From the NCBI GenBank assembly GCA_003144275.1, contig NJBF01000008.1, positions 66,932-98,931 on the forward strand: a DNA stretch of 32,000 nt. The letters are read 5' to 3'. The notes under the pieces were generated by a model. It was not told the DNA's origin. It saw only the letters and a list, made by a program, of their open reading frames with translations, and made no database searches. Positions 15,166 to 30,875 of the stretch are shown here, in pieces. Position 1 is the first letter of the stretch, and every line of letters begins with the position of its first letter. The DNA is from Candidatus Heimdallarchaeota archaeon B3_Heim. Its GTDB lineage: Archaea; Asgardarchaeota; Heimdallarchaeia; Hodarchaeales; Hodarchaeaceae. Both the position numbers and the translations under genes were made by a program.

Positions 15166-16854
15166 TTAGAGAAACCTTAGCCTTTTTTGAAGGTCCTCCC
15201 ACGATCCTCCTCCAAATTTAAGCAGGTATTCAGTAAGTTTAACGAGAAGAGGTTCCTCATCCAGAATCCAGAGTAAAAGAGGAGACAGTTTTCCCCATTC
15301 AGATTCGTAATCGATACCAGGAAAAAAGCAATGAATAGTTAGATAGACAGCTGTATTATCAAAAGCCGCTCTAAAAGAAGTTCTTCTACCTGATTGTGGG
15401 GGACGATTCGATAAAATCTGCATGATATGATGGGACAGAGTGCGATCATCAGTTGCGGTCTCAAAGTAAAGGAGAGAAAATTCCTTGGCTAAGGTTTCCC
15501 CTTCCATGGTAGAGACCACAGGTTGGGGTGTACAGACTCCAATTAAGGCAATGGGCCGTTCATTTAAAGGAGTGGATGTTGGAAGAGTCTGAAATTTTTC
15601 TTTTAGGAGATTAAAGGATGGTCGATCACTTTTATCGAAAATAATTAGTACTCCGCCCACCTTTTGTAAAGCAGAATTAAGAGTGTCTCCAGAAAGGGAT
15701 TTCAGACTTATCTGAAACAGGAGACTTACAATAAGATCTTTTATCTTAACTTTTTTTATTTCATTCTCAGAAATCCATGCTTCCCAATCCCGAAGTTTGA
15801 TCCCCCTGCGATAGAGCTCTAGGAGGGGCCCCCAGTTCTCAGGAGTCAGCGGATTTCCTCGGACATATAGCACCTGCAGATGCTTGAGCTGAGTTAAGGT
15901 TGGCGGAAGAGATAACAATTTATTATCTTTCACGCGCAATGCGGACAGGTGGATAAGCGAATGTATCTCCTCTGGGAGCTGAGTCAATTGATTGGCATTC
16001 AGGTTTAAATTCCGAAGATTCGACAGAATTAACACAGGATAGGGGAATACCAAGAAACGATTCTTTTGCAAGTACAAGTTCCGAAGGTGATGAAGGTTTC
16101 TGATTGACTCAGGAAGAATGGTTAGGGAATTACTCGTGATTGAGAGTTTTTGAAGAGTTTGTAATCCTCCGAGGGTCGGGGGAAGCATTTTTAAGTGATT
16201 ATTATCCAACGATAAATTTTGTAAATTGGGAAGAGTTCCGAGGGAGTCAGGAAGCGAGCTCAGCTGGTTATACCGACACCAAAACTCACGGAGCTGTGTC
16301 AATCCCCCTATAGTCTTCGGTAGAGTGGTTAAGTCGTTATGATCTAAATCCAACCGTGTTAATTGAGTCAGATTCCCGAATGAGTCAGGTAAAGATCTTA
16401 ACTGACAACAAGTGAGTTTTAGACTTTTCAGGTGCGCAAGACTCCCGAAAGAGATTGGGAGAGTCTGAAGCTCCTGTTTTTCTATGAATAAGCCAACTAG
16501 ATGTTGGTCTTTGATGTCTAGATGAATCATGCCCGAATTATATGGGGTATCCATCTGTCCTCCCAGGTCCAACAATGCATAAGCTTCGTGTTGTACCAAA
16601 ACTGAGTACAGCCAATAATTTCTCTGATACTTTGCATCCAGTTGCAAACGGATACTGTCCTCTGCGGTTCCAGGATCTACATATCCCACAATCTCAAACC
16701 AGCCCGTAGAGCATAACACTCGAATTAATTCTTCCGCAACTGCAGTTTCGAGTTTAAAAAAGTCAAGAAACTCGTCAAATGTTAGTGATAACGTTCCCCC
16801 GGAATTATGAAATTCCCTCTGGATTTTTTGTAGTAGTTCCTGCCCACTCACCAT
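15166..16854 (-). CDS. LRR protein fused to a degenerate Rab/Roc-like small-GTPase domain
   Basis: About 9-10 23-aa LRRs (LxxLxLxxNxLxxLPxxxxxL); C-terminal GGVLIIFDKSDRPSF..L...IALIG....VVSTMEGETLAKEFSLLYFETA follows the Rab-fold pattern. Confidence 0.85.
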   Translation of the reverse strand: MVSGQELLQKIQREFHNSGGTLSLTFDEFLDFFKLETAVAEELIRVLCSTGWFEIVGYVDPGTAEDSIRLQLDAKYQRNYWLYSVLVQHEAYALLDLGGQMDTPYNSGMIHLDIKDQHLVGLFIEKQELQTLPISFGSLAHLKSLKLTCCQLRSLPDSFGNLTQLTRLDLDHNDLTTLPKTIGGLTQLREFWCRYNQLSSLPDSLGTLPNLQNLSLDNNHLKMLPPTLGGLQTLQKLSITSNSLTILPESIRNLHHLRNLYLQKNRFLVFPYPVLILSNLRNLNLNANQLTQLPEEIHSLIHLSALRVKDNKLLSLPPTLTQLKHLQVLYVRGNPLTPENWGPLLELYRRGIKLRDWEAWISENEIKKVKIKDLIVSLLFQISLKSLSGDTLNSALQKVGGVLIIFDKSDRPSFNLLKEKFQTLPTSTPLNERPIALIGVCTPQPVVSTMEGETLAKEFSLLYFETATDDRTLSHHIMQILSNRPPQSGRRTSFRAAFDNTAVYLTIHCFFPGIDYESEWGKLSPLLLWILDEEPLLVKLTEYLLKFGGGSWEDLQKRLRFL

Positions 16855-18926: not shown

Positions 18927-20417
18927 TTAGGTATCAATGAGTTCAATTTTCTCTCCCACAAGGAACCCCGCGAAGTCTACGTCGCTATCCTCCCAAAAAA
19001 TCTCAGTGTCGAAAGTTTGGATGACTTTTTCCAAATAAAATAGATAATAATACCTGTCATATTTTAAGATCATCCGTTTTTCATGTGGAGAGAGATCCAG
19101 ATATTTATTAATATCTGATGGGCCAATATTAAGAATATCCGACACTATTTTAATCTTGTTTGGAAATTTTGAGAAATGAAAAGCAATATTGTAAATCCTT
19201 GACTTTAGAATCATTTCGTCAGAAATTTCATTACTAAGGGAAGTATCCCTAAGTTTTAACCATTCTTTAAAAACTTCAGAGGGGAAGTACGGATCAAAAT
19301 CCGAATCATATCCTATAAGAATATTTTTGCTTGTTCGGAAATATTTAGTCATATTATGGAATCTCAAATGAGCAATGATCCGCGCAATTTCACTTTTGAG
19401 ATCCTCGAATTTTTGTTCTATAGTCAGCTCGTTTACTTTATTTATATCTGGAAATCGAAATGGGCTAATCACCTTATCATACCTTCTTTCTTTCGTCTTA
19501 CTTTTGAAATGTGAGTGGACTCCCAAATAGATTGTTGCCAGGCTAAGATAGACAAAAGATAAAAAGAACAGCGTACTAGCTTCCACTCCAATATAAAATC
19601 CTAGAAATTCAGACCTGAAGAAAGTTATGGCAAACCAGATCCCAAATACATTTATTATCAATAAAATGAACGCCATTTCAGATACTTGGTTAACTCTCTT
19701 CATTATTCCTTCTTTCTCCTCCATCATGGTAGAAAGCCTTCTTAGCTTTAATTTATTCCAGTGTGTAACTATCAGTGCTAGTTCTTTTGGTATCACATCC
19801 TCAGAAAGACTTTCTGCTTCAATGTTTTCAACTAGCTTCTTAACTTCAACTTCAGTATTATCTTCCCTCTTTATTTTTATCAACGTAAATAGAACTTCGT
19901 ATATTGCAGTAAAACCTAATGTTTTGCTAAGTTTTTCATCTTGATGTAGTTTAATTTTATCTGTAACACTTCCCCGAAAGAATTTTGTTTCATCATTTAC
20001 TCTGTAAAAATATCTACCCCCGTACCAAATTCCTTTTGGACTCAGAGGGATATGGATTAGAATAAATGGGTTTATTATTCTTGGAAGATGAATGACCTCG
20101 ATTTTTAAATTAAAGGGTGTTCCAAATGAGTCTGTGGCAATCTGATTGATCTTCTTGGTCCATTCTTTAATATCAGTGATTCCTTGCCATGGATCCGCAT
20201 TTTTTTCTTCCACACCAAGAACTATCATACCAGAAGCAGAATTTGCCATAGCAGCCATTGTCTTTGCTAAATTTTTTGGTTTTATCCTCCCACTCTTGAA
20301 ATCTAAATAACTAGTTTCCCCTCTCTTCATATAGTGCTCAAGTGCTTCCTGAATCTGTTCGTGTGTTAAAAATCCCAATAACCCTTTTTCTGGATATTCT
20401 CTCTCTCTTTTTGCCAT
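18927..20417 (-). CDS. Schlafen/AlbA_2-domain protein with two TM helices
   Basis: GETSYLDFKS, AKTMAAMANSASGMIVLGVEE, YFYRV; hydrophobic helices at about aa 246-298. Confidence 0.88.
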   Translation of the reverse strand: MAKREREYPEKGLLGFLTHEQIQEALEHYMKRGETSYLDFKSGRIKPKNLAKTMAAMANSASGMIVLGVEEKNADPWQGITDIKEWTKKINQIATDSFGTPFNLKIEVIHLPRIINPFILIHIPLSPKGIWYGGRYFYRVNDETKFFRGSVTDKIKLHQDEKLSKTLGFTAIYEVLFTLIKIKREDNTEVEVKKLVENIEAESLSEDVIPKELALIVTHWNKLKLRRLSTMMEEKEGIMKRVNQVSEMAFILLIINVFGIWFAITFFRSEFLGFYIGVEASTLFFLSFVYLSLATIYLGVHSHFKSKTKERRYDKVISPFRFPDINKVNELTIEQKFEDLKSEIARIIAHLRFHNMTKYFRTSKNILIGYDSDFDPYFPSEVFKEWLKLRDTSLSNEISDEMILKSRIYNIAFHFSKFPNKIKIVSDILNIGPSDINKYLDLSPHEKRMILKYDRYYYLFYLEKVIQTFDTEIFWEDSDVDFAGFLVGEKIELIDT

Positions 20418-20495
20418 GATGTTTATCTATAGGGTAACCATTTTTAAGATTTCCTTGCTTTATTTAGTCTATTATCTGGATTAATTCGCCTTCAT

Positions 20496-21086
20496 TTGGA
20501 AGAGATGAATAAAACGAATATGTCATCTAAAAAAACACATAAATTATTCGTCTGTTCTGATTCTGAATTATTAAGCTTCCTCTCAACCTTTTCAAGTAAG
20601 AAAATTGGTAAGAATACTCTTGAGCTATTAATCCAGTTTGAAGAGAAATTCCAAGAAAACGAACTGTATCCTTTTTGTCCATTTCTCAGAGTTCCTACAA
20701 CTAATGGCGAATCTAGTTGGATGTTCCTACCAGAATACTTTTTCACCTTTCTTAGTGAAGTATGGGATAATTTCACAGAATTAATCTTGAAGGATACACG
20801 TCAAAAGGGAGATATCTTTGAATCAGAATTGAGACAAATCTTCACAAACGCGGGATTCAATGTTTGGAAGAAGCACAAAATACAAAATTTGATGAATTAC
20901 ATTAAACGTGATGGAACTGGTGATATTGATTTAATTATTCAAGATGAATCGACCGTATTATGGATACAAGCGAAGTCAGTATATTATAATCGAAAATCAT
21001 ATCAGACTGTTCTGAGAAAGGGTAGGAAACAATTGGTTTCTGCATATGAAACGTTTAGGAGGAATCAAAAAACATTTTCGTATTAA
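20496..21086 (+). CDS. PD-(D/E)xK (NERD-like) nuclease fragment, probably a remnant
   Basis: GDIFESEL...GDIDLIIQ...LWIQAKS...RKGRKQL; no SD, open frame without start upstream, coding-like pieces downstream. Confidence 0.6.
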   Translation: MEEMNKTNMSSKKTHKLFVCSDSELLSFLSTFSSKKIGKNTLELLIQFEEKFQENELYPFCPFLRVPTTNGESSWMFLPEYFFTFLSEVWDNFTELILKDTRQKGDIFESELRQIFTNAGFNVWKKHKIQNLMNYIKRDGTGDIDLIIQDESTVLWIQAKSVYYNRKSYQTVLRKGRKQLVSAYETFRRNQKTFSY

Positions 21087-21587
21087 TAAAGTTGAAGTAA
21101 AGGGGGACCTAGAGAGTTATGGCTATTTTAGTAAAGCAGACTATCAGAAGTATATCGAAGGCATCACATCGTAAAGTTAGATGATTCTATCTTAATAACT
21201 ATTGAATATAGCTAACCAAGATAGTTCACCTATAAATATCAAACATTAATAGAGAGGGAGAGAGAAACACAAAGTGAAACCACTAGATTATATTACAAAA
21301 AGAAAATAAAAAAAAATAATTTCGATAAAATAGTCTTTGTTGTTTTACCACCCCTTTGAAAACCTCTAGCCCAATAAAAAAGGGTATTTCTTTTATTTAT
21401 TATTAATTTAGTGTCAATAGTGTCTTTCGATTAGAAAAATCCAAATCATCCGTATTCTGTTTGCTGAAAGAACTAAAAAAATAAAAGAATATTGGATTTG
21501 AGTGATTGTGGTTTTAGCGAATCTTCCATTGACCACTAAACTTAGTTTTATCTTTTAATCTTTGTTATCAATCGTTCAGTGGGATTC

Positions 21588-22070
21588 TTATTGATTAGAA
21601 TTAATCTCCTCAATTGCTTGATTAGGAGTTAAGACCCTAATACTATATCTAGAAGAATTTCCATTTTCATCTGGATTAAGTTTTTCGATTAATCGCATAT
21701 CTGCCGTGATCAATGTAGCTCTAGAGACATAAGCAAGTCTAATAAGATATTTGTCATCTTCAGGTAATTCACTTTCATCTACTAGATGATGTTCTTCGTC
21801 ATTCCAAATCTGAAATTATGCCTTATTCGGGAACAACCTAAAAAGTAAACCAGTTAATATACTCGCATTTGATTTATTTCTTTCCTTTAATATTGAGATA
21901 TGCTTGTAATAATGCTTCAGCAATTCATTGCTTACAAGTATCGAATCACACTGATATCCTATATCAATGAAGATTTTCAAAGCAATCGTGCTATCTTGAT
22001 TTTGATGATCCACTAAATTAGAAGCATGCCTTAAGAGACATTCATCAAGTATGTAGTTTCTCCCTGTCAT
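21588..22070 (-). pseudogene. PIN-domain ribonuclease interrupted by one in-frame TAA (21816-21818)
   Basis: MTGRNYILDE...SNELLKHY...PNKA*FQIW...EDDKYLIRLA...LITADMRL...VLTPNQA; all four PIN acidic positions present across the stop. Confidence 0.82.
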
Positions 22071-23334
22071 TTTCTTTCCCTTCTGGTTTAACACCAACTA
22101 GTACATCAATGTAACGCTTATATTGTTCTATATTTGCTTCAAAAAAATCAGGTAATCCTTCTTTTAATCGTCCATTTTTATCAAATTCTAATTCTTTTCC
22201 ATAACAACCATTTCTGTCGTCCTTAAAGTGATAGAGAGCTAGTTCATGTTTCTTCAATTCTCCTAAACCGATCTTAGTTAATGCATGGTAGACTATGTGT
22301 TCACTATGAGTAGTGATAAGCAATCTTTTATTACAGTCAAGTGCTTCTCTAATGAAAACTTCGATTAGTTTTGATTGAGCACGAGGATGCAAATGTATCT
22401 CTGGTTCTTCTATAATAATTATGCTTTCAGGAGAAGCAAGAGCTAGTTGAGTTAACAAGAAAGCAAGCTGATTTAGCCCAAATCCTTCATTTAAAATTGA
22501 TATATTAGGTATTTGTTCCCTTTTTTTTCTATCAACTTGCTTAACACTCTCTAGCGTAATTTTTTTCCCAGGAAATAATTTATCCTTTAAAGGCTTTTTT
22601 AAAATTTGATTACACCAAGAAGAAACAATTTCTAGAATCTCTGGTTTGTAAGCAAGAGTACTAATCCATTTTGAATTTATTATTTCAAATCTCTCATTAG
22701 AGGGAGTTAAAAGGTTTTCAACTGGGTTATCTTCAAGAAATTCAAAGGGTTTTAAAGTTCCCCTTATGGAAGGAACATACCACAAAGGAAATAGATCATC
22801 TTCAATTATACTAAATGATGATGATAATTCTCTCCTGGTTTGGTTTAATACCCGTCTCTCCTCACCGGATGAACTACTCGAAGTTATGTCAAATGGTTTT
22901 CCGAATTTTTTCGTTGGAGATATACTAATTCTTGTATTTTTACTGTAATGTAGTTGTTCGGGATTTACTTTAGCGTCACTTCCTTTTATGATACCATAAG
23001 GAGGTATCTTCAATTCTGCAAAGTAAGAAATTTTTCCGTTGCTTATTGTGATTTCTTCTTCGTACTGAAGCTTTTTCTTCCTTCCTTTCAATGTGAATTC
23101 AATAGGTATGGTTTGATCTCTGTTAAAAAATACATCTTCCAATTCACCAAATCTAATATTTTCCCCATCAATTACCAAGGTTTCTGATTCTAATGACTGT
23201 TTCAACAATAACATAGCTTGACCAATAGAAGATTTTCCAGACCCATTAGCACCTATGAGGATTGTAATCGGTTTTAATTCAATATTTGCTTCAACAATCC
23301 CTTTAAAATATTTAATACCAAGATATTCCAGCAA
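22045..23334 (-). CDS. ABC-type (AAA_15/AAA_21) ATPase with DUF3696-like C-terminus
   Basis: GANGSGKS, signature-like EGFGLNQL, IIIIEEPEIHLHP, LITTHSE, C-terminal ELEFDKNGRL..GLPDFFE; SD AGGAG. Confidence 0.92.
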   Translation of the reverse strand: MLEYLGIKYFKGIVEANIELKPITILIGANGSGKSSIGQAMLLLKQSLESETLVIDGENIRFGELEDVFFNRDQTIPIEFTLKGRKKKLQYEEEITISNGKISYFAELKIPPYGIIKGSDAKVNPEQLHYSKNTRISISPTKKFGKPFDITSSSSSGEERRVLNQTRRELSSSFSIIEDDLFPLWYVPSIRGTLKPFEFLEDNPVENLLTPSNERFEIINSKWISTLAYKPEILEIVSSWCNQILKKPLKDKLFPGKKITLESVKQVDRKKREQIPNISILNEGFGLNQLAFLLTQLALASPESIIIIEEPEIHLHPRAQSKLIEVFIREALDCNKRLLITTHSEHIVYHALTKIGLGELKKHELALYHFKDDRNGCYGKELEFDKNGRLKEGLPDFFEANIEQYKRYIDVLVGVKPEGKENDREKLHT

Positions 23335-23457
23335 ATCTATCTCTCCTTTTGCTTAAGTGTTTAGTTCAATTTAAATAAAATAAATCAATATATCAAAATA
23401 ATGAATTACATCATATCTACAAATTTAATTACTAATTGTTTCTATCTTTTTTCAATA

Positions 23458-24510
23458 TTAAAAATACTCGTCTAAGGTTGAATCACCTTTTTTTGTTTCT
23501 TCTTTCTTCTTTTTCTTTCTTCTTTCTTGTTTCCATCTTGCTGTAAGTTTACAATAGATCTGTGCCATCGATGATCGGTGACGATGAGTTTTGAAAGGAG
23601 CAATCAGCATTGAATACGAACTTATCAGAATGGTGTCATTGTAAACCTGATTTTCCGTTGGATCCCTTATTATGATCTGTTTTGATTTTAGAAACACTTC
23701 TAAACACTGTTTTAGGTGATTTGGTTTCGGAAATGGAGGAGAAGTTATACCAGTAGCCCCTTCTTCCACCATATTTTTGAATTTCTCATATAACGTTCGT
23801 AAAGTGAATTCAAATGGCTCTAAATCCCAAGCACCTTTTCGAAAAATTTTAGGAGTTAATAATAATTGTTGAATTCGCTCACAAGTATAAGGGATGTTTG
23901 CATTTCTTAGAAAAAGAGGCCAATGATAGTATGAAAGGATGATTTCAGGACCAATTACTTTTATTTGCATAAACATATTAGAAATATTTTTCTTCAACGT
24001 TTTTTCCTTCAAAAAGAAGTGATAACAATCAGAATTTGGATTAAATTCCCAGAGAAGGATTCCGAAATTTCTAGAAAAAAAAGAATTACATTCAGTATGT
24101 TTCGAAACGTATTCTTCTTTAAAATCTTGAAATGCACCATAATCTTTTTTAGGTAGGACAAATACAACGTTTTGTTCTAGAAACGGTAAAACAATACCAT
24201 AGAGGTCATTATACAACAGTAAATCCTTGATTTGTTTCATACCATAATTCTCAGAAAATGAAGCCACTATCTCAATTATAACAGCAGTACGAGTATCTTT
24301 TGAAATATAAAGGAGATCTGGAGTCCTTATTCCGACCGTCTTTTTGTCATTCATAAATTGATAAATATTTGTTTCAATCCCTCGGAATTTAAAATCATTT
24401 TTCTTAATTATAGGAAGCATTTCTAAAATTATGCAGAAATAAACATTAATAGACTCGTTATAGATTTTATACTCCTTTTCGAGCTCTTCCCAAAGTTTAC
24501 GTTTTCCCAC
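23458..24510 (-). CDS. Hypothetical protein with N-terminal PD-(D/E)xK-like fold
   Basis: E...RTPDLLYI....AVIIEIVAS...QIKDL..Y pattern (Lys position replaced); GTG start with SD GAGGG. Confidence 0.6.
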   Translation of the reverse strand: MGKRKLWEELEKEYKIYNESINVYFCIILEMLPIIKKNDFKFRGIETNIYQFMNDKKTVGIRTPDLLYISKDTRTAVIIEIVASFSENYGMKQIKDLLLYNDLYGIVLPFLEQNVVFVLPKKDYGAFQDFKEEYVSKHTECNSFFSRNFGILLWEFNPNSDCYHFFLKEKTLKKNISNMFMQIKVIGPEIILSYYHWPLFLRNANIPYTCERIQQLLLTPKIFRKGAWDLEPFEFTLRTLYEKFKNMVEEGATGITSPPFPKPNHLKQCLEVFLKSKQIIIRDPTENQVYNDTILISSYSMLIAPFKTHRHRSSMAQIYCKLTARWKQERRKKKKKEETKKGDSTLDEYF

Positions 24511-24530
24511 CTATACCCCTCGCTTTTGAA

Positions 24531-25550
24531 TTATGTTGAAACGGAAAGAGGTTTTATATGCCAGGGAGTCCCAACACAGGAGTGAATAGATTCGATTAAA
24601 GCGGTGAGAGATGTATTATCAAAGTTCTGGTCGGCAGAAATACGAATAATATTTCTTACAGCAATTAAAACAAACAAACTACCTGTTTTAGGATCAAAGA
24701 CATTCAAATGAAGAAAAGGATTTCCTGAATGAATAGTGGTTGAAAGAAATCGTTCTTCAAGGTCTTTAGATAAAGAATCTATTATTTGATTGAATTCTTC
24801 CTTTATAAGAGGAGCTTCAAATTCCAGTTCTAATACCTTACCTTGTGGGGAACCCATTACAGAAAAAGTAATTGGTTGTATATCATATTTTGATTTGTTT
24901 TCATTTCTTTGAGCAGTAATGGCGTTGCTAAAAATTGTAAGAAAGTCGTTAATACTCCCTGTCATTATACCAATAGTTCCATCTTGAAAAATTCTTAATT
25001 TCAGAGGGGGAACGCCTATAGGAATTTCTAGAGATACATAACGCCATTTATTTCGTTTTTTATCAAACCCGTCGTAACTATGACTAATATGCGAGATATC
25101 GAATTCTTTATTGAGTACATCTTCAATTTTCATTAGAAGGGACTCCGTGAAAATTATTCGTCTCCAAAGGGGATGCATTAGTTTAAGTAAGCTTTTTTGG
25201 ATGAAATTCCCCTCTGTTAATTCATTTGTTAAGAAAATGATTCCATTTTTGTTATCAATCAGATAGAGAATCGCAGAGGCATCAATTCTCTTCCCATATC
25301 TGCGTGCTCTATAAAAACGGAGTCTAATAAGATCCTCATCAAGTAAATCATAACGAATTTTAATACCGCGTTCTTCAACATCAATATTTTTGAGAAAAAA
25401 CAATTTATTTTCAATGAAATCGTCTGTTAAATCGAGAAAGATAGTTTTTAAATGAAGTTTCCTTCTATCTGAAGTATAAACCATTTCAAGTTTTGAAAAT
25501 AAATCCTCTTTATTTTTCACAGACCTAAATATTGCTTCTATCAATTTCAA
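24531..25550 (-). CDS. Hypothetical protein (339 aa)
   Basis: Long ORF, TTG with SD GAAGGA, 20 nt from the next gene; motif IHSGNPFLHLNVFD; no family named. Confidence 0.75.
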   Translation of the reverse strand: MKLIEAIFRSVKNKEDLFSKLEMVYTSDRRKLHLKTIFLDLTDDFIENKLFFLKNIDVEERGIKIRYDLLDEDLIRLRFYRARRYGKRIDASAILYLIDNKNGIIFLTNELTEGNFIQKSLLKLMHPLWRRIIFTESLLMKIEDVLNKEFDISHISHSYDGFDKKRNKWRYVSLEIPIGVPPLKLRIFQDGTIGIMTGSINDFLTIFSNAITAQRNENKSKYDIQPITFSVMGSPQGKVLELEFEAPLIKEEFNQIIDSLSKDLEERFLSTTIHSGNPFLHLNVFDPKTGSLFVLIAVRNIIRISADQNFDNTSLTALIESIHSCVGTPWHIKPLSVST

Positions 25551-26598: not shown

Positions 26599-26775
26599 TT
26601 GGAATTTGACAAAGATCTATTACCTGAAAGTTTGTTTGAGAAAGCTTTAAATCAATTAGATGATAAAATATCAAAGAATGAGATTATAGAATTGGTAGAT
26701 TTCTTTAACAAGGTTTATTATAAAGATGTGGATATAAAAAATGAATTAAAAACGTTTTTGGATAGATTCGTATGA
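26599..26775 (+). CDS. 58-aa helical ORF (below ORF-track cutoff), coupled to the SMC gene
   Basis: SD GAGGG, TTG start, MEFDKDLLPESLFEKALNQLDDKISKNEIIELVDFFNKVYYKDVDIKNELKTFLDRFV; ATGA overlap with 26772. Confidence 0.6.
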   Translation: MEFDKDLLPESLFEKALNQLDDKISKNEIIELVDFFNKVYYKDVDIKNELKTFLDRFV

Positions 26776-29288
26776 TTACAAAACTTGTTCTGAAAAATTG
26801 GATGAGTCATTTAGACACCGAATTGAAATTCTCTCCAGGTTTGAATCTCATCTTTGGTGAGAACGGTGTTGGTAAAACTGCTGTGATTCATGCAATTGAT
26901 TTTGCTTTGTCTGGTTTCTCTCCAATCAAAGGAGTTAGCTTGAAGAATCTTGTTAAAATAGGCTCTGATGAAACTGTTGTAAAATTAGATTTTTTCACGT
27001 CGGGAAAACAACAACTTTTCAGAGTTAAAAGAAAAATCTATCGTGACCCAGATCGATCTCAAGATGCCTTCCTCTTCGATTTAAACTATCCAGATCGTCC
27101 TCTAGCAACAGGACGTGATGATGTTAATATGGAAATTAATGTTTTGTTAGGATTACAATCCGATTTATCTAAAGATTTAATTTTCTTTAAAGAAGGTGTG
27201 GTTGGTCTTTACCTGGTAAACACACCAAAAGAAAGAGAAAAACAATTTTATGACCTTTTAAATCTAGAAAAAATAGAGCAATTTAGGAAGATTGTTGTTT
27301 CTTCCACAAATGATGAAAGGGGAGAAAAAAATCGAATAGTTATTCGAATCAAAGAAATTGATGATCGTTTATTAAAGCTCGAAGTAAAAAATCTAGATTT
27401 ATTATCTGAAAGGTTATTGGAGATAGAAAATAAGATAGATTCACTGAAAATTAGCAAAGATGAATTATGGACATCAGATAGCGTTGAAATAAATGAATTT
27501 ACAAGGAAAAAAGAAATAGTACAGAATGAGATTGATAAATTAAAAGAATCTTTATTTAGAAAAGAGAGATCAAAAAAGTCACTTCTTTTGAATTATCGCT
27601 CTCTAAACGAAATGGAGACATTTGTAAAGACTCTTCCTGAGTTAAATACTTCTCTGAATGAATGTCAAGACAAAATAGACAAATATTATGATGAAAGGAG
27701 GATTGAACAGGCTAAAATGGATTTAATACGGAGCCAAAGGAATTTATTAGAATCGACTGAGATTCAAAAAGATCTAAGATGTCCCACATGCTGGAAACCT
27801 TTATCTAGAAATGAAATCTCTGATTTATTACTTGAATCAAAAAAAGAAATTAGTAATCTCCACATTTCTGCAAAAAAATTATCTGACAAAATAATACCTT
27901 TATCCTCGGAAATGAAGGAGATAAAAGATGAAATTGGCAGATTATTTGAAGCTAAGAGCAACATTCCACAACTTTCTATGTTGAAAGAAGAGATAGAAGT
28001 TACTCAAACACGTTTCAATGAGAAGACGGAAGAACTAAGAATTTTAAATGAAAAAATTACCTCAATATCAGATTTCGATAGATCAAAAAGAATAATTGAT
28101 ATTGATAATGAAATTAAATCCCTTTCAATTGAAAAAAGTAAGATTGAGAAAGAATTAAACGTTTTTGAACAGAAAGATGACGAAATGAAGTATTTAGAGA
28201 AATCGAGAAAGGGCTTACTAGACAAATTGGCCAGATGCGAGAAAAAATTAAGAATTCAATATTTTCTTCAAAAGGGGCTTGAATCAATTATTGGTAATTT
28301 TACAAGGAATCTTTTCAAACAGCTTATAGAGAATATACAACCAAGGTTAAGAGATCTTGTGGAGATTGAATTTGATGGTATATCAATAGATCCAAAAGAT
28401 AACATTCTAGTGCTTTATCGCGACCAAGAGAGATTAGATTTTCGACACTTAAGTAGTGGTCAGAAATTGCTAGTGTATCTTGCTTTTCGGCTTGCACTTA
28501 TCGAGATCTTCGGTAGTGTAGACTTCTCAATTGTTGATGAACCCTCTGAGCATTTAGATTCCTATCATTGTAAAACTCTTCGGGACGAGTTCTTCAAACT
28601 TTCACAGTCCGATTTCATACCTTTTAGACAAGCTGTAATTGCTGCGAATGATTCTAGATTTTCTGGACCATTAGGAGAGGATATTGATTATCCCTGGCAA
28701 GTTGTTTATCAATTTAAACTTGATAATGGCAATACTAAAACTAAATCAATTCATAAGAAAAAGAAATTAAAAACAAGAGATGAACTAATACGAGATATAA
28801 CAACGCTTACACTTGACGTTAAAGGAATACCTGAATATATTAAAAATCAAGTTAAGACTAACATTGCAGAAGGGAAAACTCCTAGTTTAAAATTTTTATC
28901 TGGTTCAGTATTAGAGATCATGTTTCAAAGATTATTGGTAGAAAATAATATTGAGTTTAAAGAAATAAGGGAATTCGGTCCATTTTCTTGTGATTTTATT
29001 ATAAATATTGAAAATCAACTTTTTGGAGTCATTATTCAGGGTTCTTCTGAAGATGTAAATGAATTGGAAATGAATTTGGATGAAATTCTCCAAATACTTG
29101 AAAATGCTAAGAGTTTTGGATTAGAAGGAGTATTATTTGTAGTTTATGTTCATACAGAAGGATTATGGAAATTCTCTCAATTAAAAAGTACTGATTTATC
29201 AAAATTAAAGGATTCGAGAGAACAAATTGGGTTAAAAAGCATGAATGAGATATTTAGAATTAATAAGAATGCAGCTACTAGTACTTAA
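26772..29288 (+). CDS. Rad50/SbcC-like SMC ATPase with C-terminal restriction-endonuclease-like domain
   Basis: GENGVGKT, FFKEG (Q-loop region), zinc hook CPTC (aa 337-340), LSSGQ (aa 560), FSIVDEPSEHLD (about aa 585-596), plus a ~170-aa tail GSVLEIMFQRLL..NI.F....CDFII. Confidence 0.9.
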   Translation: MITKLVLKNWMSHLDTELKFSPGLNLIFGENGVGKTAVIHAIDFALSGFSPIKGVSLKNLVKIGSDETVVKLDFFTSGKQQLFRVKRKIYRDPDRSQDAFLFDLNYPDRPLATGRDDVNMEINVLLGLQSDLSKDLIFFKEGVVGLYLVNTPKEREKQFYDLLNLEKIEQFRKIVVSSTNDERGEKNRIVIRIKEIDDRLLKLEVKNLDLLSERLLEIENKIDSLKISKDELWTSDSVEINEFTRKKEIVQNEIDKLKESLFRKERSKKSLLLNYRSLNEMETFVKTLPELNTSLNECQDKIDKYYDERRIEQAKMDLIRSQRNLLESTEIQKDLRCPTCWKPLSRNEISDLLLESKKEISNLHISAKKLSDKIIPLSSEMKEIKDEIGRLFEAKSNIPQLSMLKEEIEVTQTRFNEKTEELRILNEKITSISDFDRSKRIIDIDNEIKSLSIEKSKIEKELNVFEQKDDEMKYLEKSRKGLLDKLARCEKKLRIQYFLQKGLESIIGNFTRNLFKQLIENIQPRLRDLVEIEFDGISIDPKDNILVLYRDQERLDFRHLSSGQKLLVYLAFRLALIEIFGSVDFSIVDEPSEHLDSYHCKTLRDEFFKLSQSDFIPFRQAVIAANDSRFSGPLGEDIDYPWQVVYQFKLDNGNTKTKSIHKKKKLKTRDELIRDITTLTLDVKGIPEYIKNQVKTNIAEGKTPSLKFLSGSVLEIMFQRLLVENNIEFKEIREFGPFSCDFIINIENQLFGVIIQGSSEDVNELEMNLDEILQILENAKSFGLEGVLFVVYVHTEGLWKFSQLKSTDLSKLKDSREQIGLKSMNEIFRINKNAATST

Positions 29289-29297
29289 GGTGATTTT

Positions 29298-30875
29298 TTG
29301 AACTATCAGAAAGTCCTTGATCAAATCAAAGGATTATCAATAGTTTTAGATGAAAATGCTCTCTTTTTCCTACTGAAGGGTAAAATATTATCAGTACTCT
29401 GGAATAAGTTTGATGATCTAGGTATAAAGTTAAAGATGACAAAAAATAGTCTTGAAAGAATTAACTTATTAGAGGGACGTGATCCTAAATCTGAAGAATC
29501 ATTTATTAATGATGAATTCATGGCAGAGTTTCAAGATCTTAAACAGTACATTAATTTAAATGGCATCCAAACTCCAGAGGTGGAGCTAACAGGTGTGAAT
29601 AGTTGGTTTAATGTTCTAAATATGAATAGTGAGGAGCCAATCCTCTGGGAACCCTTAGCACTAATTTCTAGAATAAATAATGTTGGAGAGAAATTCTTCC
29701 TTGTTAGTGATAATCCATACTTGAATGAAATTCTTGTTCAGGTCAAAATAAAGGAGTTTATTCAAACAGAATTTCTAATGTTTTCTTCTTATGAGTTTGT
29801 ACTTCTATTTTTCACAATTTGTACCTTTTCGCATGAACAATTGATTAAATTTCAATTGATATATTATAAAAACATAATAATAACTACTAATGAAACAGAA
29901 GAGTATAGACGTCGGGAACTTGAAAAATTCATTCAAGAGGAAACTCCTAGAGCTTTGGATAACAAACCTCATTTTCATGATCCAATGTTAAATAATCTAG
30001 AGATCCATGATCTTATAAAAAACTGTAATGAAATTAATTTAGAACGATATAAAATTATTGGTAATTATGTACGATTTGATGAATCAAGCAGGAACAAAAT
30101 CATCGAGTTGGTAGAAAGGGTGGGTCAAAATCTTCAGTCAAATAAGATTAATTATAAAAATTTTATAATATGGGCTCCTCCAGGAACGGGCAAAACCTTT
30201 CTAATAAGAGAAATAGCAAATGAATATTTATCAGGAGAAAATTCATTTGATGAAATAAATCTAAAAGATTTCACTAATGAAGAAGAATTAATAGAAAGGC
30301 TTTCATTAATTATTGAAGAATCAAATCAAGTTCAGAAAATTGTTCTTTTTGATGAGATTGATTCACATCTAGATAGTACCTGGGTATTTGAGGTTATACT
30401 AAACTTTTGTGATAGAGTATGTCAGTCTATTTTTTCTCCTTTGATCTTTTTTGCAGGTAGTTCAAATGGTAATATAGAAAATTTCATTAGATATTCGATA
30501 GCTTCAAGACCGAAAGGTAGCGATGTAACAGATAGAGTTTTCACTGAAAATCGATTTTCTATTCCTGAATTTACAAATGAGGATCGTTTTGCACTATTTG
30601 TTTCTAAAATTCTTAAGAATAATGAATCGAGATTAAGACCTATAAGATATATCGAAAAAGCTGTCTTGATATGTCTTTTACGTGATCCAAAATACTTTAC
30701 TGCAAGACAATTAACAGAATGCATAAATAGATGTTTAGATTATATAGGAGAATATGATCTAAGATTAACGTTCGAAAAACATATACTTACCTTAGGTTAT
30801 CCATCATTTAGGGTTTTTTTTTACGAATACCATAATGATGATGAAATTTTCGGAAAATTTATCGAAATTAGATAG
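29298..30875 (+). CDS. PIN-like domain fused to an AAA+ ATPase
   Basis: N-terminal SIVLDENAL...FLVSDNPYL (PIN-like); C-terminal IIWAPPGTGKT, VLFDEIDS, KGSDVTDRV, TARQL; SD GGTGA, 9 nt after the SMC stop. Confidence 0.75.
   Translation: MNYQKVLDQIKGLSIVLDENALFFLLKGKILSVLWNKFDDLGIKLKMTKNSLERINLLEGRDPKSEESFINDEFMAEFQDLKQYINLNGIQTPEVELTGVNSWFNVLNMNSEEPILWEPLALISRINNVGEKFFLVSDNPYLNEILVQVKIKEFIQTEFLMFSSYEFVLLFFTICTFSHEQLIKFQLIYYKNIIITTNETEEYRRRELEKFIQEETPRALDNKPHFHDPMLNNLEIHDLIKNCNEINLERYKIIGNYVRFDESSRNKIIELVERVGQNLQSNKINYKNFIIWAPPGTGKTFLIREIANEYLSGENSFDEINLKDFTNEEELIERLSLIIEESNQVQKIVLFDEIDSHLDSTWVFEVILNFCDRVCQSIFSPLIFFAGSSNGNIENFIRYSIASRPKGSDVTDRVFTENRFSIPEFTNEDRFALFVSKILKNNESRLRPIRYIEKAVLICLLRDPKYFTARQLTECINRCLDYIGEYDLRLTFEKHILTLGYPSFRVFFYEYHNDDEIFGKFIEIR

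What the first reader, a model, noticed from the sequence alone, without database searches (positions are those of the whole stretch)
21588..25550. Four-gene minus-strand cluster: hypothetical, nuclease-like, DUF3696-type ATPase, PIN
Seen: 339-aa hypothetical, 350-aa PD-(D/E)xK-like protein (20-nt gap), ABC-type ATPase, then an overlapping PIN gene. Established: AAA_15/21 ATPases pair with nuclease effectors in Septu (HNH) and PARIS (TOPRIM); as I recall, Menshen uses a DUF3696-type ATPase with DUF262. Neither upstream protein has the DUF262 DGQQR motif. Inference: a new ATPase-gated PIN-RNase system. The 123-nt AT-rich gap at 23335-23457 may split it into two 2-gene units.
Basis: partly seen in the sequence, partly recalled or inferred. 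Interest (0 to 1): 0.72.

Follow-up and report, generated by a model that had tools for sequence, protein, structure and literature searches.

The report
Two gene pairs; ATPase-PIN defence module
The four genes are two unrelated gene pairs lying side by side in an Asgard archaeon's defence island: a widespread but uncatalogued ATPase-plus-PIN-nuclease pair related to the Menshen and HEC-03 anti-virus systems (its nuclease is broken here by a stop codon), and a very rare pair of unknown function.

Summary
All four minus-strand ORFs, the gaps and the in-frame TAA in the PIN gene are as described. They do not form one system.

**ATPase + PIN (21588-23334).** This is a self-contained two-gene cassette.
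- In about 30 other loci, in Asgard archaea, Bathyarchaeia, Chloroflexota, Bacteroidota and others, a PIN of this family directly follows a homologous ATPase.
- The neighbouring genes in those loci are unrelated, and no DUF262 sensor is present.
- The ATPase best matches Menshen NsnB, then HEC-03.
- The partner is a stand-alone PIN of about 155 aa. It has the VapC-like fold and three near-invariant Asp residues.
- A predicted 2:1 complex places the PIN between the two ATPase C-terminal tails, as modelled for NsnB-NsnC.
- In the window, a conserved Lys codon (codon 85) reads TAA, so the effector is probably dead.

**P1 + P2 (23458-25550).** This pair recurs without ATPase-PIN in three other Hodarchaeales-type loci. 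It resembles the M. jannaschii MJECL33/MJECL32 pair. P2 has a PD-(D/E)xK-like domain that has lost its Lys.

ATPase-plus-PIN defence is already validated experimentally (HEC-03), and this scan has found sensor-less Menshen-like pairs before on other DNA. I therefore rate this a new variant of a known kind, of moderate interest.

The parts
24531..25550 (-). P1, 339 aa. First gene of module B, MJECL33-like, function unknown.
   Evidence: ORF. No Pfam, PADLOC or NCBIfam hit. Only 2 homologues were found among 5.8 billion proteins, one of them named Hodarchaeota. The Atlas gives feature score 0.93 and structure TM 0.61-0.64 to MJECL33/AF_0896_M clusters. It always lies directly upstream of a P2 homologue.
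23458..24510 (-). P2, 350 aa. Second gene of module B. It has an N-terminal PD-(D/E)xK-like domain with TPD...E-I-V (Lys lost) and a helical C-terminal half; MJECL32-like.
   Evidence: AF2 model has pLDDT 77. Foldseek PDB top hits are XisH, YaeQ, BsmI, SfsA and PaqCI, with E 0.03-0.15. AFDB gives full-length uncharacterised clusters at E 9.5e-12 and partial hits to NucS, VRR-NUC and Mrr. Atlas structure TM is 0.62-0.66 to MJECL32 clusters. The motif appears in alignment A5. The M. jannaschii counterpart has TPD...FECK.
23335..23457 (-). 123-nt AT-rich spacer separating the two modules. It probably holds the ATPase-PIN promoter: a TTTATTTAAA-type box about 40 nt upstream of the TTG start, and GGAG 9-12 nt upstream.
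   Evidence: Read directly from the sequence. The promoter role is inference only.
22045..23334 (-). NsnB/HEC-03-type ABC ATPase, 429 aa, intact. It has Walker A GANGSGKS, an Arg in place of the Q-loop Gln, signature EGFG, Walker B IIIEEPE, H-loop TTHSEH, and a conserved C-terminal tail GLPxFFEAN..KRY.
   Evidence: Pfam AAA_15/AAA_21. PADLOC NsnB 1.4e-49, HEC-03B 2.8e-30. Motifs in alignment A7. Orthologues at 40-63% identity lie upstream of every PIN homologue.
21588..22070 (-). Stand-alone PIN-like nuclease gene of 160 codons, interrupted by a nonsense codon. A probable pseudogene of the effector.
   Evidence: Translation. It is 33-55% identical to intact homologues of 159-180 aa. PIN fold: VIA Z 9.5 to VapC11 (3.3 A over 121 residues), and nearly all of the top 50 rows are PIN or PIN-like nucleases. 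D10, D107 and D125 are conserved in 96-97% of 140 family representatives.
21816..21818 (-). In-frame TAA at codon 85. It replaces a Lys that is conserved in 92% of the family, which is one base away from AAA.
   Evidence: The product would end before two of the three invariant Asp residues. No public reads could be listed to check the base.

Best explanation
The cluster is two independent two-gene modules lying next to each other in a low-GC defence island of a Hodarchaeales-type Asgard archaeon.

Module A (21588-23334) is a sensor-less relative of Menshen and HEC-03. It pairs an NsnB-type ABC ATPase with a small stand-alone PIN nuclease. I infer the following mechanism. The ATPase oligomerises and holds one PIN between the C-terminal tails of an ATPase dimer, which keeps the nuclease silent. 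A virus-derived cue acts directly on the ATPase, because there is no NsnA. That cue changes the ATPase's ATP-bound state and releases or activates the PIN. The PIN then cuts RNA, possibly DNA, and stops the infected cell or the virus. In this genome the PIN carries a nonsense mutation at codon 85 (Lys to TAA), so the module is most likely disarmed, and recently so.

Module B (23458-25550) is a rare pair resembling MJECL33/MJECL32. Its second protein has a PD-(D/E)xK-like fold without the catalytic Lys, followed by a helical, possibly DNA-binding, half. I take it to be a separate accessory module linked to mobile elements or conflict systems. Its activity is unknown.
For: **Independence of the two modules**
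- P1-P2 recurs in G019/L006 = L023, L020 and L025, with different flanks and no ATPase-PIN downstream.
- ATPase-PIN recurs without P1-P2 in G037, in G012, G046 and G320, on metagenome contigs L014-L019 and L026-L028, and on the two P0058 contigs.
- It also recurs in 16 of the 17 closest ATPase relatives among 80 GTDB loci.
- Upstream neighbours in those loci are housekeeping genes or lie on the other strand.

**Family size**
- 192 clusters at 50% identity match at E<=1e-3. Nearly all are 145-170 aa.

**Kinship of the ATPase**
- NsnB is the best PADLOC hit for the window ATPase and for four partner ATPases, with HEC-03B second.
- The Q-loop Arg and the GxG signature described for NsnB in PMC12065111 are present.

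**The PIN**
- The fold is PIN.
- Three Asp residues are 96-97% conserved.
- Weak Pfam PIN-clan hits occur in many members.

**Binding**
- A predicted 2:1 complex of the orthologous L014 ATPase and P0012 PIN scored 0.67, against 0.11 for the best of 3 controls.
- That mark was reached by 58 of 80 solved complexes and 2 of 110 mismatched pairs.
- The runs share at least 81% of contacts, and the partner's pLDDT is at least 82.
- The interface is ATPase residues 379-408 of both copies against PIN residues 67-90. This is the geometry modelled for NsnB4-NsnC2.

**Defence role**
- HEC-03 (ABC ATPase + PIN) protects E. coli from phages, and both genes are needed.
- The window neighbours are an LmuB-like SMC protein, a Schlafen/AlbA_2 protein and a NERD-like protein.

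**No NsnA**
- PF03235 has no match anywhere in the 94%-complete assembly. The positive controls worked in 7 of 14 genomes.

**Effector decay**
- The PIN is also disrupted in G320 (TAG, N-terminus lost) and in L059 (frameshift), next to intact ATPases.
Against: - No experiment exists for this family. Defence, toxicity, the substrate and the trigger are all inferred by analogy.
- The window PIN and 60 family members match no HEC-03 model, so homology to the validated system rests on the ATPase alone.
- The fourth canonical PIN acidic residue (Glu at about position 50) is present in only 41% of the family.
- The complex was predicted for orthologues, not for the window's own proteins. Solved ATPase-effector complexes such as Septu and PARIS could bias the model.
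- Many comparison contigs are short, so distant partners cannot be excluded.
- The TAA could be an assembly error. No reads could be listed to check it.
- Independent occurrence elsewhere does not exclude that the two modules cooperate here.
Confidence: 0.72

Rival explanations
1. This is one four-gene system. P1 and P2 would act as sensor and nuclease in place of NsnA, feeding the ATPase, which gates the PIN.
For: All four genes are co-oriented, with gaps of 20 nt and 123 nt and one overlap. Menshen has a DNA-binding sensor gene upstream of NsnB. P2 has a nuclease-like fold plus a helical half.
Against: None of about 30 ATPase-PIN loci has P1 or P2 upstream. None of 3 other P1-P2 loci has ATPase-PIN downstream. 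P2 was found in only 2 of 400 Asgard genomes, and strong PIN-family matches in 4 of 400. The window's genome is the only one with both. The 123-nt spacer contains a TATA-like box and a GGAG before the ATPase start.
Confidence: 0.06
2. ATPase-PIN is a toxin-antitoxin-like addiction or stress module rather than an antiviral system. The PIN would be the toxin and the ATPase a type IV/VII-like antitoxin, with the role of stabilising mobile DNA.
For: The PIN has a VapC-like fold. AAA_21 carries the Pfam label 'putative AbiEii toxin, type IV TA system'. The distribution is patchy and looks HGT-like across bacteria and archaea. The effector is repeatedly inactivated. HEC-03 expression was toxic in E. 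coli.
Against: The closest characterised relatives, HEC-03 and Menshen, protect against phage. The window copy lies among defence-type genes. The two readings overlap mechanistically, as in abortive infection, and are not exclusive.
Confidence: 0.15
3. The PIN-like protein is a non-catalytic adaptor, like the Menshen inPIN domain. The pair would lack an effector of its own, or use one encoded elsewhere.
For: All 35 NsnC inPIN families lack catalytic residues. The second PIN acidic residue is poorly conserved here. One relative, P0112, carries a C-terminal Shedu-type nuclease domain.
Against: Three Asp residues at the canonical PIN positions are 96-97% conserved across 140 divergent representatives. 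About 190 clusters are stand-alone proteins of about 155 aa with no room for another domain. No conserved third gene follows them.
Confidence: 0.07

Closest known systems
Menshen (NsnA-NsnB-NsnC; Millman et al. 2022; domain analysis in Li et al. 2025, PMC12065111)
   Same: The ATPase is NsnB-type: best PADLOC hit, Arg in place of the Q-loop Gln, a GxG signature and a conserved C-terminal helical tail. The gene directly downstream encodes a PIN-fold protein. The predicted complex puts the PIN between two ATPase C-terminal tails, as in the published NsnB4-NsnC2 model.
   Different: There is no NsnA (ParB-DUF262 + ParBDB) upstream or anywhere in the assembly. The PIN keeps three invariant Asp residues rather than being 'inactive'. 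It has no C-terminal effector domain, at about 155 aa against roughly 300 aa. Walker B reads EE here, whereas EN was described for S. silvestris NsnB.
HEC-03 (Hma-embedded candidate 03; Payne et al. 2024 preprint, 10.1101/2024.01.29.577857)
   Same: It has the same two-gene architecture, an ABC ATPase plus a PIN-domain protein described as VapC-like. In HEC-03 both genes are required for phage defence. The window ATPase matches the PADLOC HEC-03 ATPase model at 2.8e-30, its second-best hit.
   Different: The PIN partner and 60 relatives match no HEC-03 model. The ATPase scores higher against NsnB. HEC-03 was found embedded in bacterial Hma systems, whereas this copy is free-standing in an archaeal island.
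Sensor-less Menshen-like ATPase + inPIN-PLD/REase pairs noted earlier in this scan (e.g. e1-1929067, e1-5357689)
   Same: They combine an NsnB-like ATPase with a tightly coupled downstream PIN-containing partner and lack NsnA. One earlier case was also two stacked two-gene modules that had been read as four genes.
   Different: Those partners are about 310-320 aa, with a dead PIN and a C-terminal PLD- or REase-like nuclease. Here the partner is the PIN alone, with catalytic-type Asp residues. I did not re-test those notes.
VapBC toxin-antitoxin, and PARIS/Septu (ABC ATPase holding a nuclease)
   Same: The PIN fold is closest to VapC toxins (Z 9.5 to VapC11). As in PARIS and Septu, an ATPase dimer is predicted to bind one nuclease protomer asymmetrically.
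   Different: There is no VapB-like small antitoxin. The effector is a PIN, not TOPRIM or HNH. The ATPase is nearer to NsnB than to AriA or PtuA.
MJECL33-MJECL32 of the M. jannaschii large extrachromosomal element (Pfam PF25924 / PF27326, function unknown), for P1-P2
   Same: The Atlas gives structure TM 0.61-0.66 to clusters carrying these families. The gene order and tight coupling match the two adjacent hypothetical genes at NC_001732 38825-41339. The TPD...E-x motif segment aligns.
   Different: Sequence similarity is not significant (hhalign E 0.06 and 0.22). P2 has E-I-V where the M. jannaschii protein has E-C-K. Assigning the MJECL numbers to those two genes is my inference from gene order. 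The Pfam models were not in the local library.

Membership tests
Menshen | NsnA (ParB-DUF262 with QRxxxW / DGxQR / FxxxN motifs, plus ParBDB) encoded directly upstream of NsnB | tested here: not met
   P1 and P2 have no Pfam hit at E<=1 and no DG.QR motif. PF03235 has no match in the whole 94%-complete assembly, and the controls were positive. Upstream genes of nine orthologous loci are unrelated.
Menshen | NsnB: ABC ATPase of AAA_15 type with Q-loop Arg, a GxG signature and a C-terminal DUF3696 helix | tested here: met
   PADLOC NsnB matches at 1.4e-49 over residues 1-405, the best of 147 families. The same holds for four orthologues. R190 and the EGFG motif are invariant. Pfam DUF3696 itself was not detected in the window protein and only weakly in one orthologue.
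Menshen | NsnC: N-terminal inactive PIN (no catalytic residues) fused to a C-terminal effector domain | tested here: not met
   The PIN fold is present. However, three Asp residues are conserved at 96-97%, and the proteins are 145-170 aa with no second domain. A single relative, P0112, has a fused SduA_C domain.
Menshen | The PIN domain is bound between two NsnB C-terminal tails (published prediction) | tested here: met
   The predicted complex scored 0.67 against 0.11 for the best control. That mark was reached by 58 of 80 solved complexes and 2 of 110 mismatched pairs. The interface is ATPase 379-408 of both copies with PIN 67-90. This is in silico only and used orthologues.
HEC-03 | ABC ATPase homologous to the HEC-03 ATPase | tested here: met
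   The PADLOC HEC-03B model (the ATPase) matches at 2.8e-30, the second-best hit. Four orthologues match at 1e-31 to 1e-37.
HEC-03 | Partner homologous to the HEC-03 PIN protein | tested here: not met
   The window PIN halves have no PADLOC hit at E<=1. None of 60 family members matches a HEC-03 model at E<=0.1, and 13 of 60 match PDC-M11A weakly. The fold class (PIN) is shared.
HEC-03 | Both genes are required for phage defence | not testable with these tools
   Experimental result for HEC-03 only.
VapBC type II toxin-antitoxin | PIN toxin preceded by a small DNA-binding antitoxin gene | tested here: not met
   The upstream gene is a 429-aa ABC ATPase in every locus examined.
PD-(D/E)xK nucleases (for P2) | alpha-beta-beta-beta-alpha-beta core with D ... 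(D/E)xK catalytic motif | tested here: inconclusive
   The fold hits are consistent but weak: Foldseek E 0.03-0.15 to XisH, YaeQ and BsmI, and Atlas TM 0.54-0.61 to the YhcG and PDDEXK_11 families. The Asp and Glu are invariant, but the Lys position is an invariant Val.

The most novel reading that the evidence does not exclude
This stand-alone, apparently catalytic PIN bound by NsnB-type tails could be the ancestral or minimal form of the Menshen/HEC-03 effector arm. The PIN would originally have been the nuclease. It would later have decayed into the 'inPIN' docking adaptor once C-terminal nucleases were fused to it; P0112, with a Shedu-type nuclease, would be an intermediate. The ATPase alone would then be a sufficient sensor, and NsnA a later add-on. 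The family's presence in Asgard archaea, Bathyarchaeia and Chloroflexota would make it an old cassette shared across domains.
Probability: 0.25. Interest if true: 0.5.

Novelty: new variant of a known kind. Interest (0 to 1): 0.4.

Why it matters
The finding defines an uncatalogued family of about 190 protein clusters. Current PADLOC models see only an orphan 'NsnB-like' ATPase there and miss the partner. If the pair works as proposed, it is the simplest member of the Menshen/HEC-03 group: one ATPase and one small nuclease, with no separate sensor. That would make it a convenient system for asking how these ATPases sense infection and gate a nuclease. It also bears on how the inactive PIN adaptor of Menshen arose. 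For annotation, the result shows that four co-oriented genes in an archaeal island should be read as two cassettes. It also shows that this copy is probably disarmed. P1-P2 adds an Asgard-restricted relative of a gene pair of unknown function from an archaeal extrachromosomal element.

Tried and rejected
- A profile search of the PIN family against PDB sequences found nothing at E<=10. Fold search was needed instead.
- Foldseek of the PIN model against PDB gave only E 0.03-0.3. VIA-align gave Z up to 9.5.
- The search for related loci with the 60-sequence PIN alignment failed because no stretch was conserved enough. I used the ATPase alignment instead.
- The look-up of sequencing runs listed no run for 21400-23400. 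The TAA could therefore not be checked against reads, and read laying was not used.
- Pfam PF25924 and PF27326 are not in the local library. Similarity to MJECL33/32 therefore rests on the Atlas and on a non-significant hhalign.
- The M. jannaschii pair and the P1/P2 relatives have no meaningful PADLOC hit.
- A regex search for DUF262 motifs in the 80 ATPase loci found only two large downstream ORFs and no canonical NsnA-NsnB locus. No ATPase tree against bona fide NsnB could be built.
- I considered recoding or readthrough at the stop. I rejected it because the disrupted copies in G320 (TAG) and L059 (frameshift) are broken at other positions, and TAA is the ordinary stop of neighbouring genes.
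- The literature search found no paper on MJECL32/33. The Asgard defensome paper I text-searched (PMC13700489) does not mention this ATPase-PIN pair.


Full report
**Observation.** The ORF listing confirms four minus-strand genes.
- P1 is 24531-25550 (339 aa).
- P2 is 23458-24510 (350 aa), 20 nt downstream of P1.
- The ATPase is 22045-23334 (429 aa), after a 123-nt AT-rich spacer at 23335-23457.
- The PIN-like frame is 21588-22070. Its ATG overlaps the ATPase stop by 26 nt, and it carries a single in-frame TAA at 21816-21818, codon 85.

The whole right-hand part of the window (19-32 kb) is lower in G+C (0.28-0.34) than the left part. It holds defence-type genes: a Schlafen/AlbA_2 protein, a NERD-like protein and an LmuB-like SMC ATPase. 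The organism is an Asgard archaeon. A same-genus genome (G019) carries a contig identical in layout to a MAG record labelled Candidatus Hodarchaeota. One related contig encodes a weak profilin match.

**One system or two.** A DNA search of 41 relatives already separated the cluster.
- G019 (same genus) has P1 and P2 homologues (335 and 358 aa), followed by small membrane ORFs and no ATPase.
- G037 (same class) has the ATPase (40% identity) and an intact 177-aa PIN (33% identity) with no P1/P2.
- Two further P1-P2 loci (L020, L025) have other neighbours again.
- Every PIN homologue I could place lies directly after a homologous ATPase:
  - metagenome contigs L014-L019, L026-L028 and the two P0058 contigs;
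  - the Asgard genomes G012, G046 and G320;
  - 16 of the 17 closest ATPase relatives among 80 loci from the GTDB species collection. These are from Bathyarchaeia, Dehalococcoidia, Anaerolineales, Saprospiraceae, Chitinophagaceae, Bryobacteraceae, Archaeoglobaceae, Ignavibacteriae and Acidobacteria.
- Genes upstream of those ATPases are on the other strand or are housekeeping genes, such as isopropylmalate dehydrogenase, saccharopine dehydrogenase and transporters.
- Among 400 Asgard genomes, P2 was found in 2 and strong PIN-family matches in 4. Only the window's genome has both.

The four genes are therefore two cassettes that happen to be neighbours here. The spacer has a TATA-like box and a GGAG before the ATPase start. 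This fits separate transcription but does not prove it.

**The ATPase.** It matches Pfam AAA_15 and AAA_21.
- The best PADLOC model is Menshen NsnB (1.4e-49, full length), followed by the HEC-03 ATPase model (2.8e-30) and AriA.
- Four orthologous partner ATPases give the same ranking.
- The alignment shows an intact Walker A, Walker B (EEPE) and H-loop. It also shows two peculiarities described for NsnB: an Arg in place of the Q-loop Gln, and a GxG signature in place of SGG. There is a conserved C-terminal tail.
- Pfam DUF3696 as such is not detected in the window protein.

**The PIN.**
- A profile of ten close homologues finds 192 clusters (50% identity level) at E<=1e-3 in 1.84 billion representatives. 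Nearly all are 145-170 aa.
- An AlphaFold2 model of the closest intact homologue (P0011, 55% identical, pLDDT 79) matches PIN or PIN-like nucleases in nearly all of the top 50 rows. The best is VapC11 at Z 9.5, 3.3 A over 121 residues.
- Many members have weak Pfam hits within the PIN clan.
- Across 140 representatives, Asp10, Asp107 and Asp125 are conserved at 96-97%. They sit at the canonical positions: the end of beta1, the start of the helix after beta3, and after beta4. Glu11 is at 81%, and the usual second acidic residue (Glu50) is at only 41%.
- This contrasts with Menshen NsnC, whose N-terminal PIN-like domains all lack catalytic residues and are fused to a C-terminal nuclease.
- One relative, P0112 (323 aa), does carry a C-terminal Shedu SduA_C nuclease domain. 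This links the family to NsnC-like architectures.

**The stop.** The TAA replaces a Lys that is conserved in 92% of the family, one base away from AAA. It lies upstream of two of the three invariant Asp residues. The sequence after it is still well conserved, so the lesion is recent, or it is an assembly error. No public reads could be listed to decide between these. Two other loci have independently damaged PIN genes next to intact ATPases: G320 has a TAG and a lost N-terminus, and L059 has a frameshift. This is what one expects of a costly effector. It also argues against recoding.

**Physical coupling.** I predicted a complex of two copies of the L014 ATPase with the PIN P0012. These are 43% and 45% identical to the window proteins, and both were given with alignments.
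- The median score was 0.67, against 0.11 for the best of three controls.
- That mark was reached by 58 of 80 solved complexes and 2 of 110 mismatched pairs.
- The runs share at least 81% of contacts, and the partner's pLDDT is at least 82.
- The interface is made by residues 379-408 of both ATPase copies (the conserved C-terminal tail) and PIN residues 67-90.
- This reproduces the published AlphaFold 3 picture of NsnB C-terminal tails sandwiching the NsnC PIN-like domain.
- It is a model, for orthologues, and related ATPase-nuclease complexes have been solved. It supports binding but does not show it.

**Comparison with known systems.**
- Menshen is defined by NsnA-NsnB-NsnC. Here NsnA is absent in cis and in the whole 94%-complete assembly, and NsnC is reduced to a PIN with catalytic-type residues. 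This is not a Menshen member.
- HEC-03 is an experimentally validated two-gene defence of an ABC ATPase and a VapC-like PIN protein, with both genes required. The architecture is the same and the ATPases are related. However, no HEC-03 model matches this PIN family, and only a weak PDC-M11A match occurs in 13 of 60 members.
- Earlier agents of this scan repeatedly reported sensor-less Menshen-like pairs whose partner is a dead PIN fused to a PLD- or REase-like nuclease. The present family differs because the PIN stands alone.
- I therefore class module A as a new variant of a known kind.

**Likely mechanism (inferred).** The steps below are by analogy with PARIS, Septu, Gabija and the Menshen model.
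- ATPase oligomers sequester one PIN per dimer through their C-terminal tails.
- An infection cue acting on the ATPase changes its nucleotide state.
- This frees or activates the PIN, which degrades RNA (possibly DNA) and aborts the infection.

Shown here: conserved gene coupling, the fold, the conserved acidic residues, and a supported predicted interface. Not shown: activity, substrate, trigger, or protection.

**Module B.** P1 and P2 have no family hits. They have only two or three homologues among 5.8 billion proteins, the named ones from Hodarchaeota/Hodarchaeales MAGs.
- The ESM Atlas links P2 to MJECL32 clusters (TM 0.62-0.66). It links P2's first ~180 residues to PD-(D/E)xK families, and P1 to MJECL33/AF_0896_M clusters (TM 0.61-0.64).
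- My AlphaFold2 model of P2 (pLDDT 77) gives weak but thematically consistent PDB hits: XisH, YaeQ, BsmI, SfsA and PaqCI. It also gives a full-length match to uncharacterised AFDB clusters at E 9.5e-12.
- The invariant motif is TPD...E-I-V. In the adjacent gene pair of the M. jannaschii large extrachromosomal element that I take to be MJECL33-MJECL32, the aligned segment reads TPD...E-C-K. The Hodarchaeales proteins therefore seem to have lost the catalytic Lys.
- The function remains unknown. The patchy distribution and variable flanks suggest an accessory module linked to mobile elements or conflict systems.

**Verdict.** The four-gene interpretation is not supported. The ATPase-PIN idea is supported, but the principle is already known. 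Interest is moderate (0.4).

Noticed in passing
window 26772-30875 (+): An 838-aa SMC/Rad50-like ATPase best matches PADLOC LmuB (3.3e-31). It is followed 9 nt later by a 525-aa protein with a C-terminal AAA+ domain (Pfam AAA 5.8e-10). This is a Lamassu-like arrangement in which no LmuA-type effector was recognised.
   Followed up: partly
window 18927-21086: A 496-aa protein with a Schlafen AlbA_2 domain (1.2e-12) lies on the minus strand. A divergent 196-aa protein gives weak NERD / YraN-like nuclease hits (PADLOC NERD 5e-5). Together with the genes to the right, they form a low-GC (about 0.30) island from about 19 kb to the end of the window.
   Followed up: no
L032 (G320:C76) 270-1884; L059 4939-5460: Two further copies of the ATPase-PIN cassette have an intact ATPase but a damaged PIN gene: an in-frame TAG plus a lost N-terminus in one, and a frameshift in the other. 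This points to recurrent loss of the effector.
   Followed up: partly
protein P0112 (metagenome, 323 aa): This is the only long member among the 150 listed hits of the PIN family. It has an N-terminal PIN-like domain fused to a Shedu SduA_C nuclease domain (1.1e-18). It may be an intermediate between the stand-alone PINs and NsnC-like effectors.
   Followed up: partly
G000:C50:21540-23057: The same genome has a second, distant AAA_15-type ATPase (33% identity over the C-terminal third, in a 521-aa open frame). Its partner genes were not examined.
   Followed up: no
L052 = NC_001732 37148-52524 (M. jannaschii large ECE): The MJECL33/32-like pair there sits among a VapBC pair, an OLD-type ATP-dependent endonuclease, an EVE-domain protein, a PIN protein and hsdR. 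This is a defence-rich stretch and hints at a conflict-related role for the pair.
   Followed up: no
window 15166-16854 (-): A 562-aa leucine-rich-repeat protein matches NCBIfam LRR effector models at 1e-22 to 1e-30, far below their cut-offs. It lies in the higher-GC block just left of the island.
   Followed up: no
L053 5641-6489 (Bathyarchaeia): In this locus a DUF6615 protein (1.3e-13) follows the PIN gene by 4 nt on the same strand. No such third gene was seen in the other loci.
   Followed up: no
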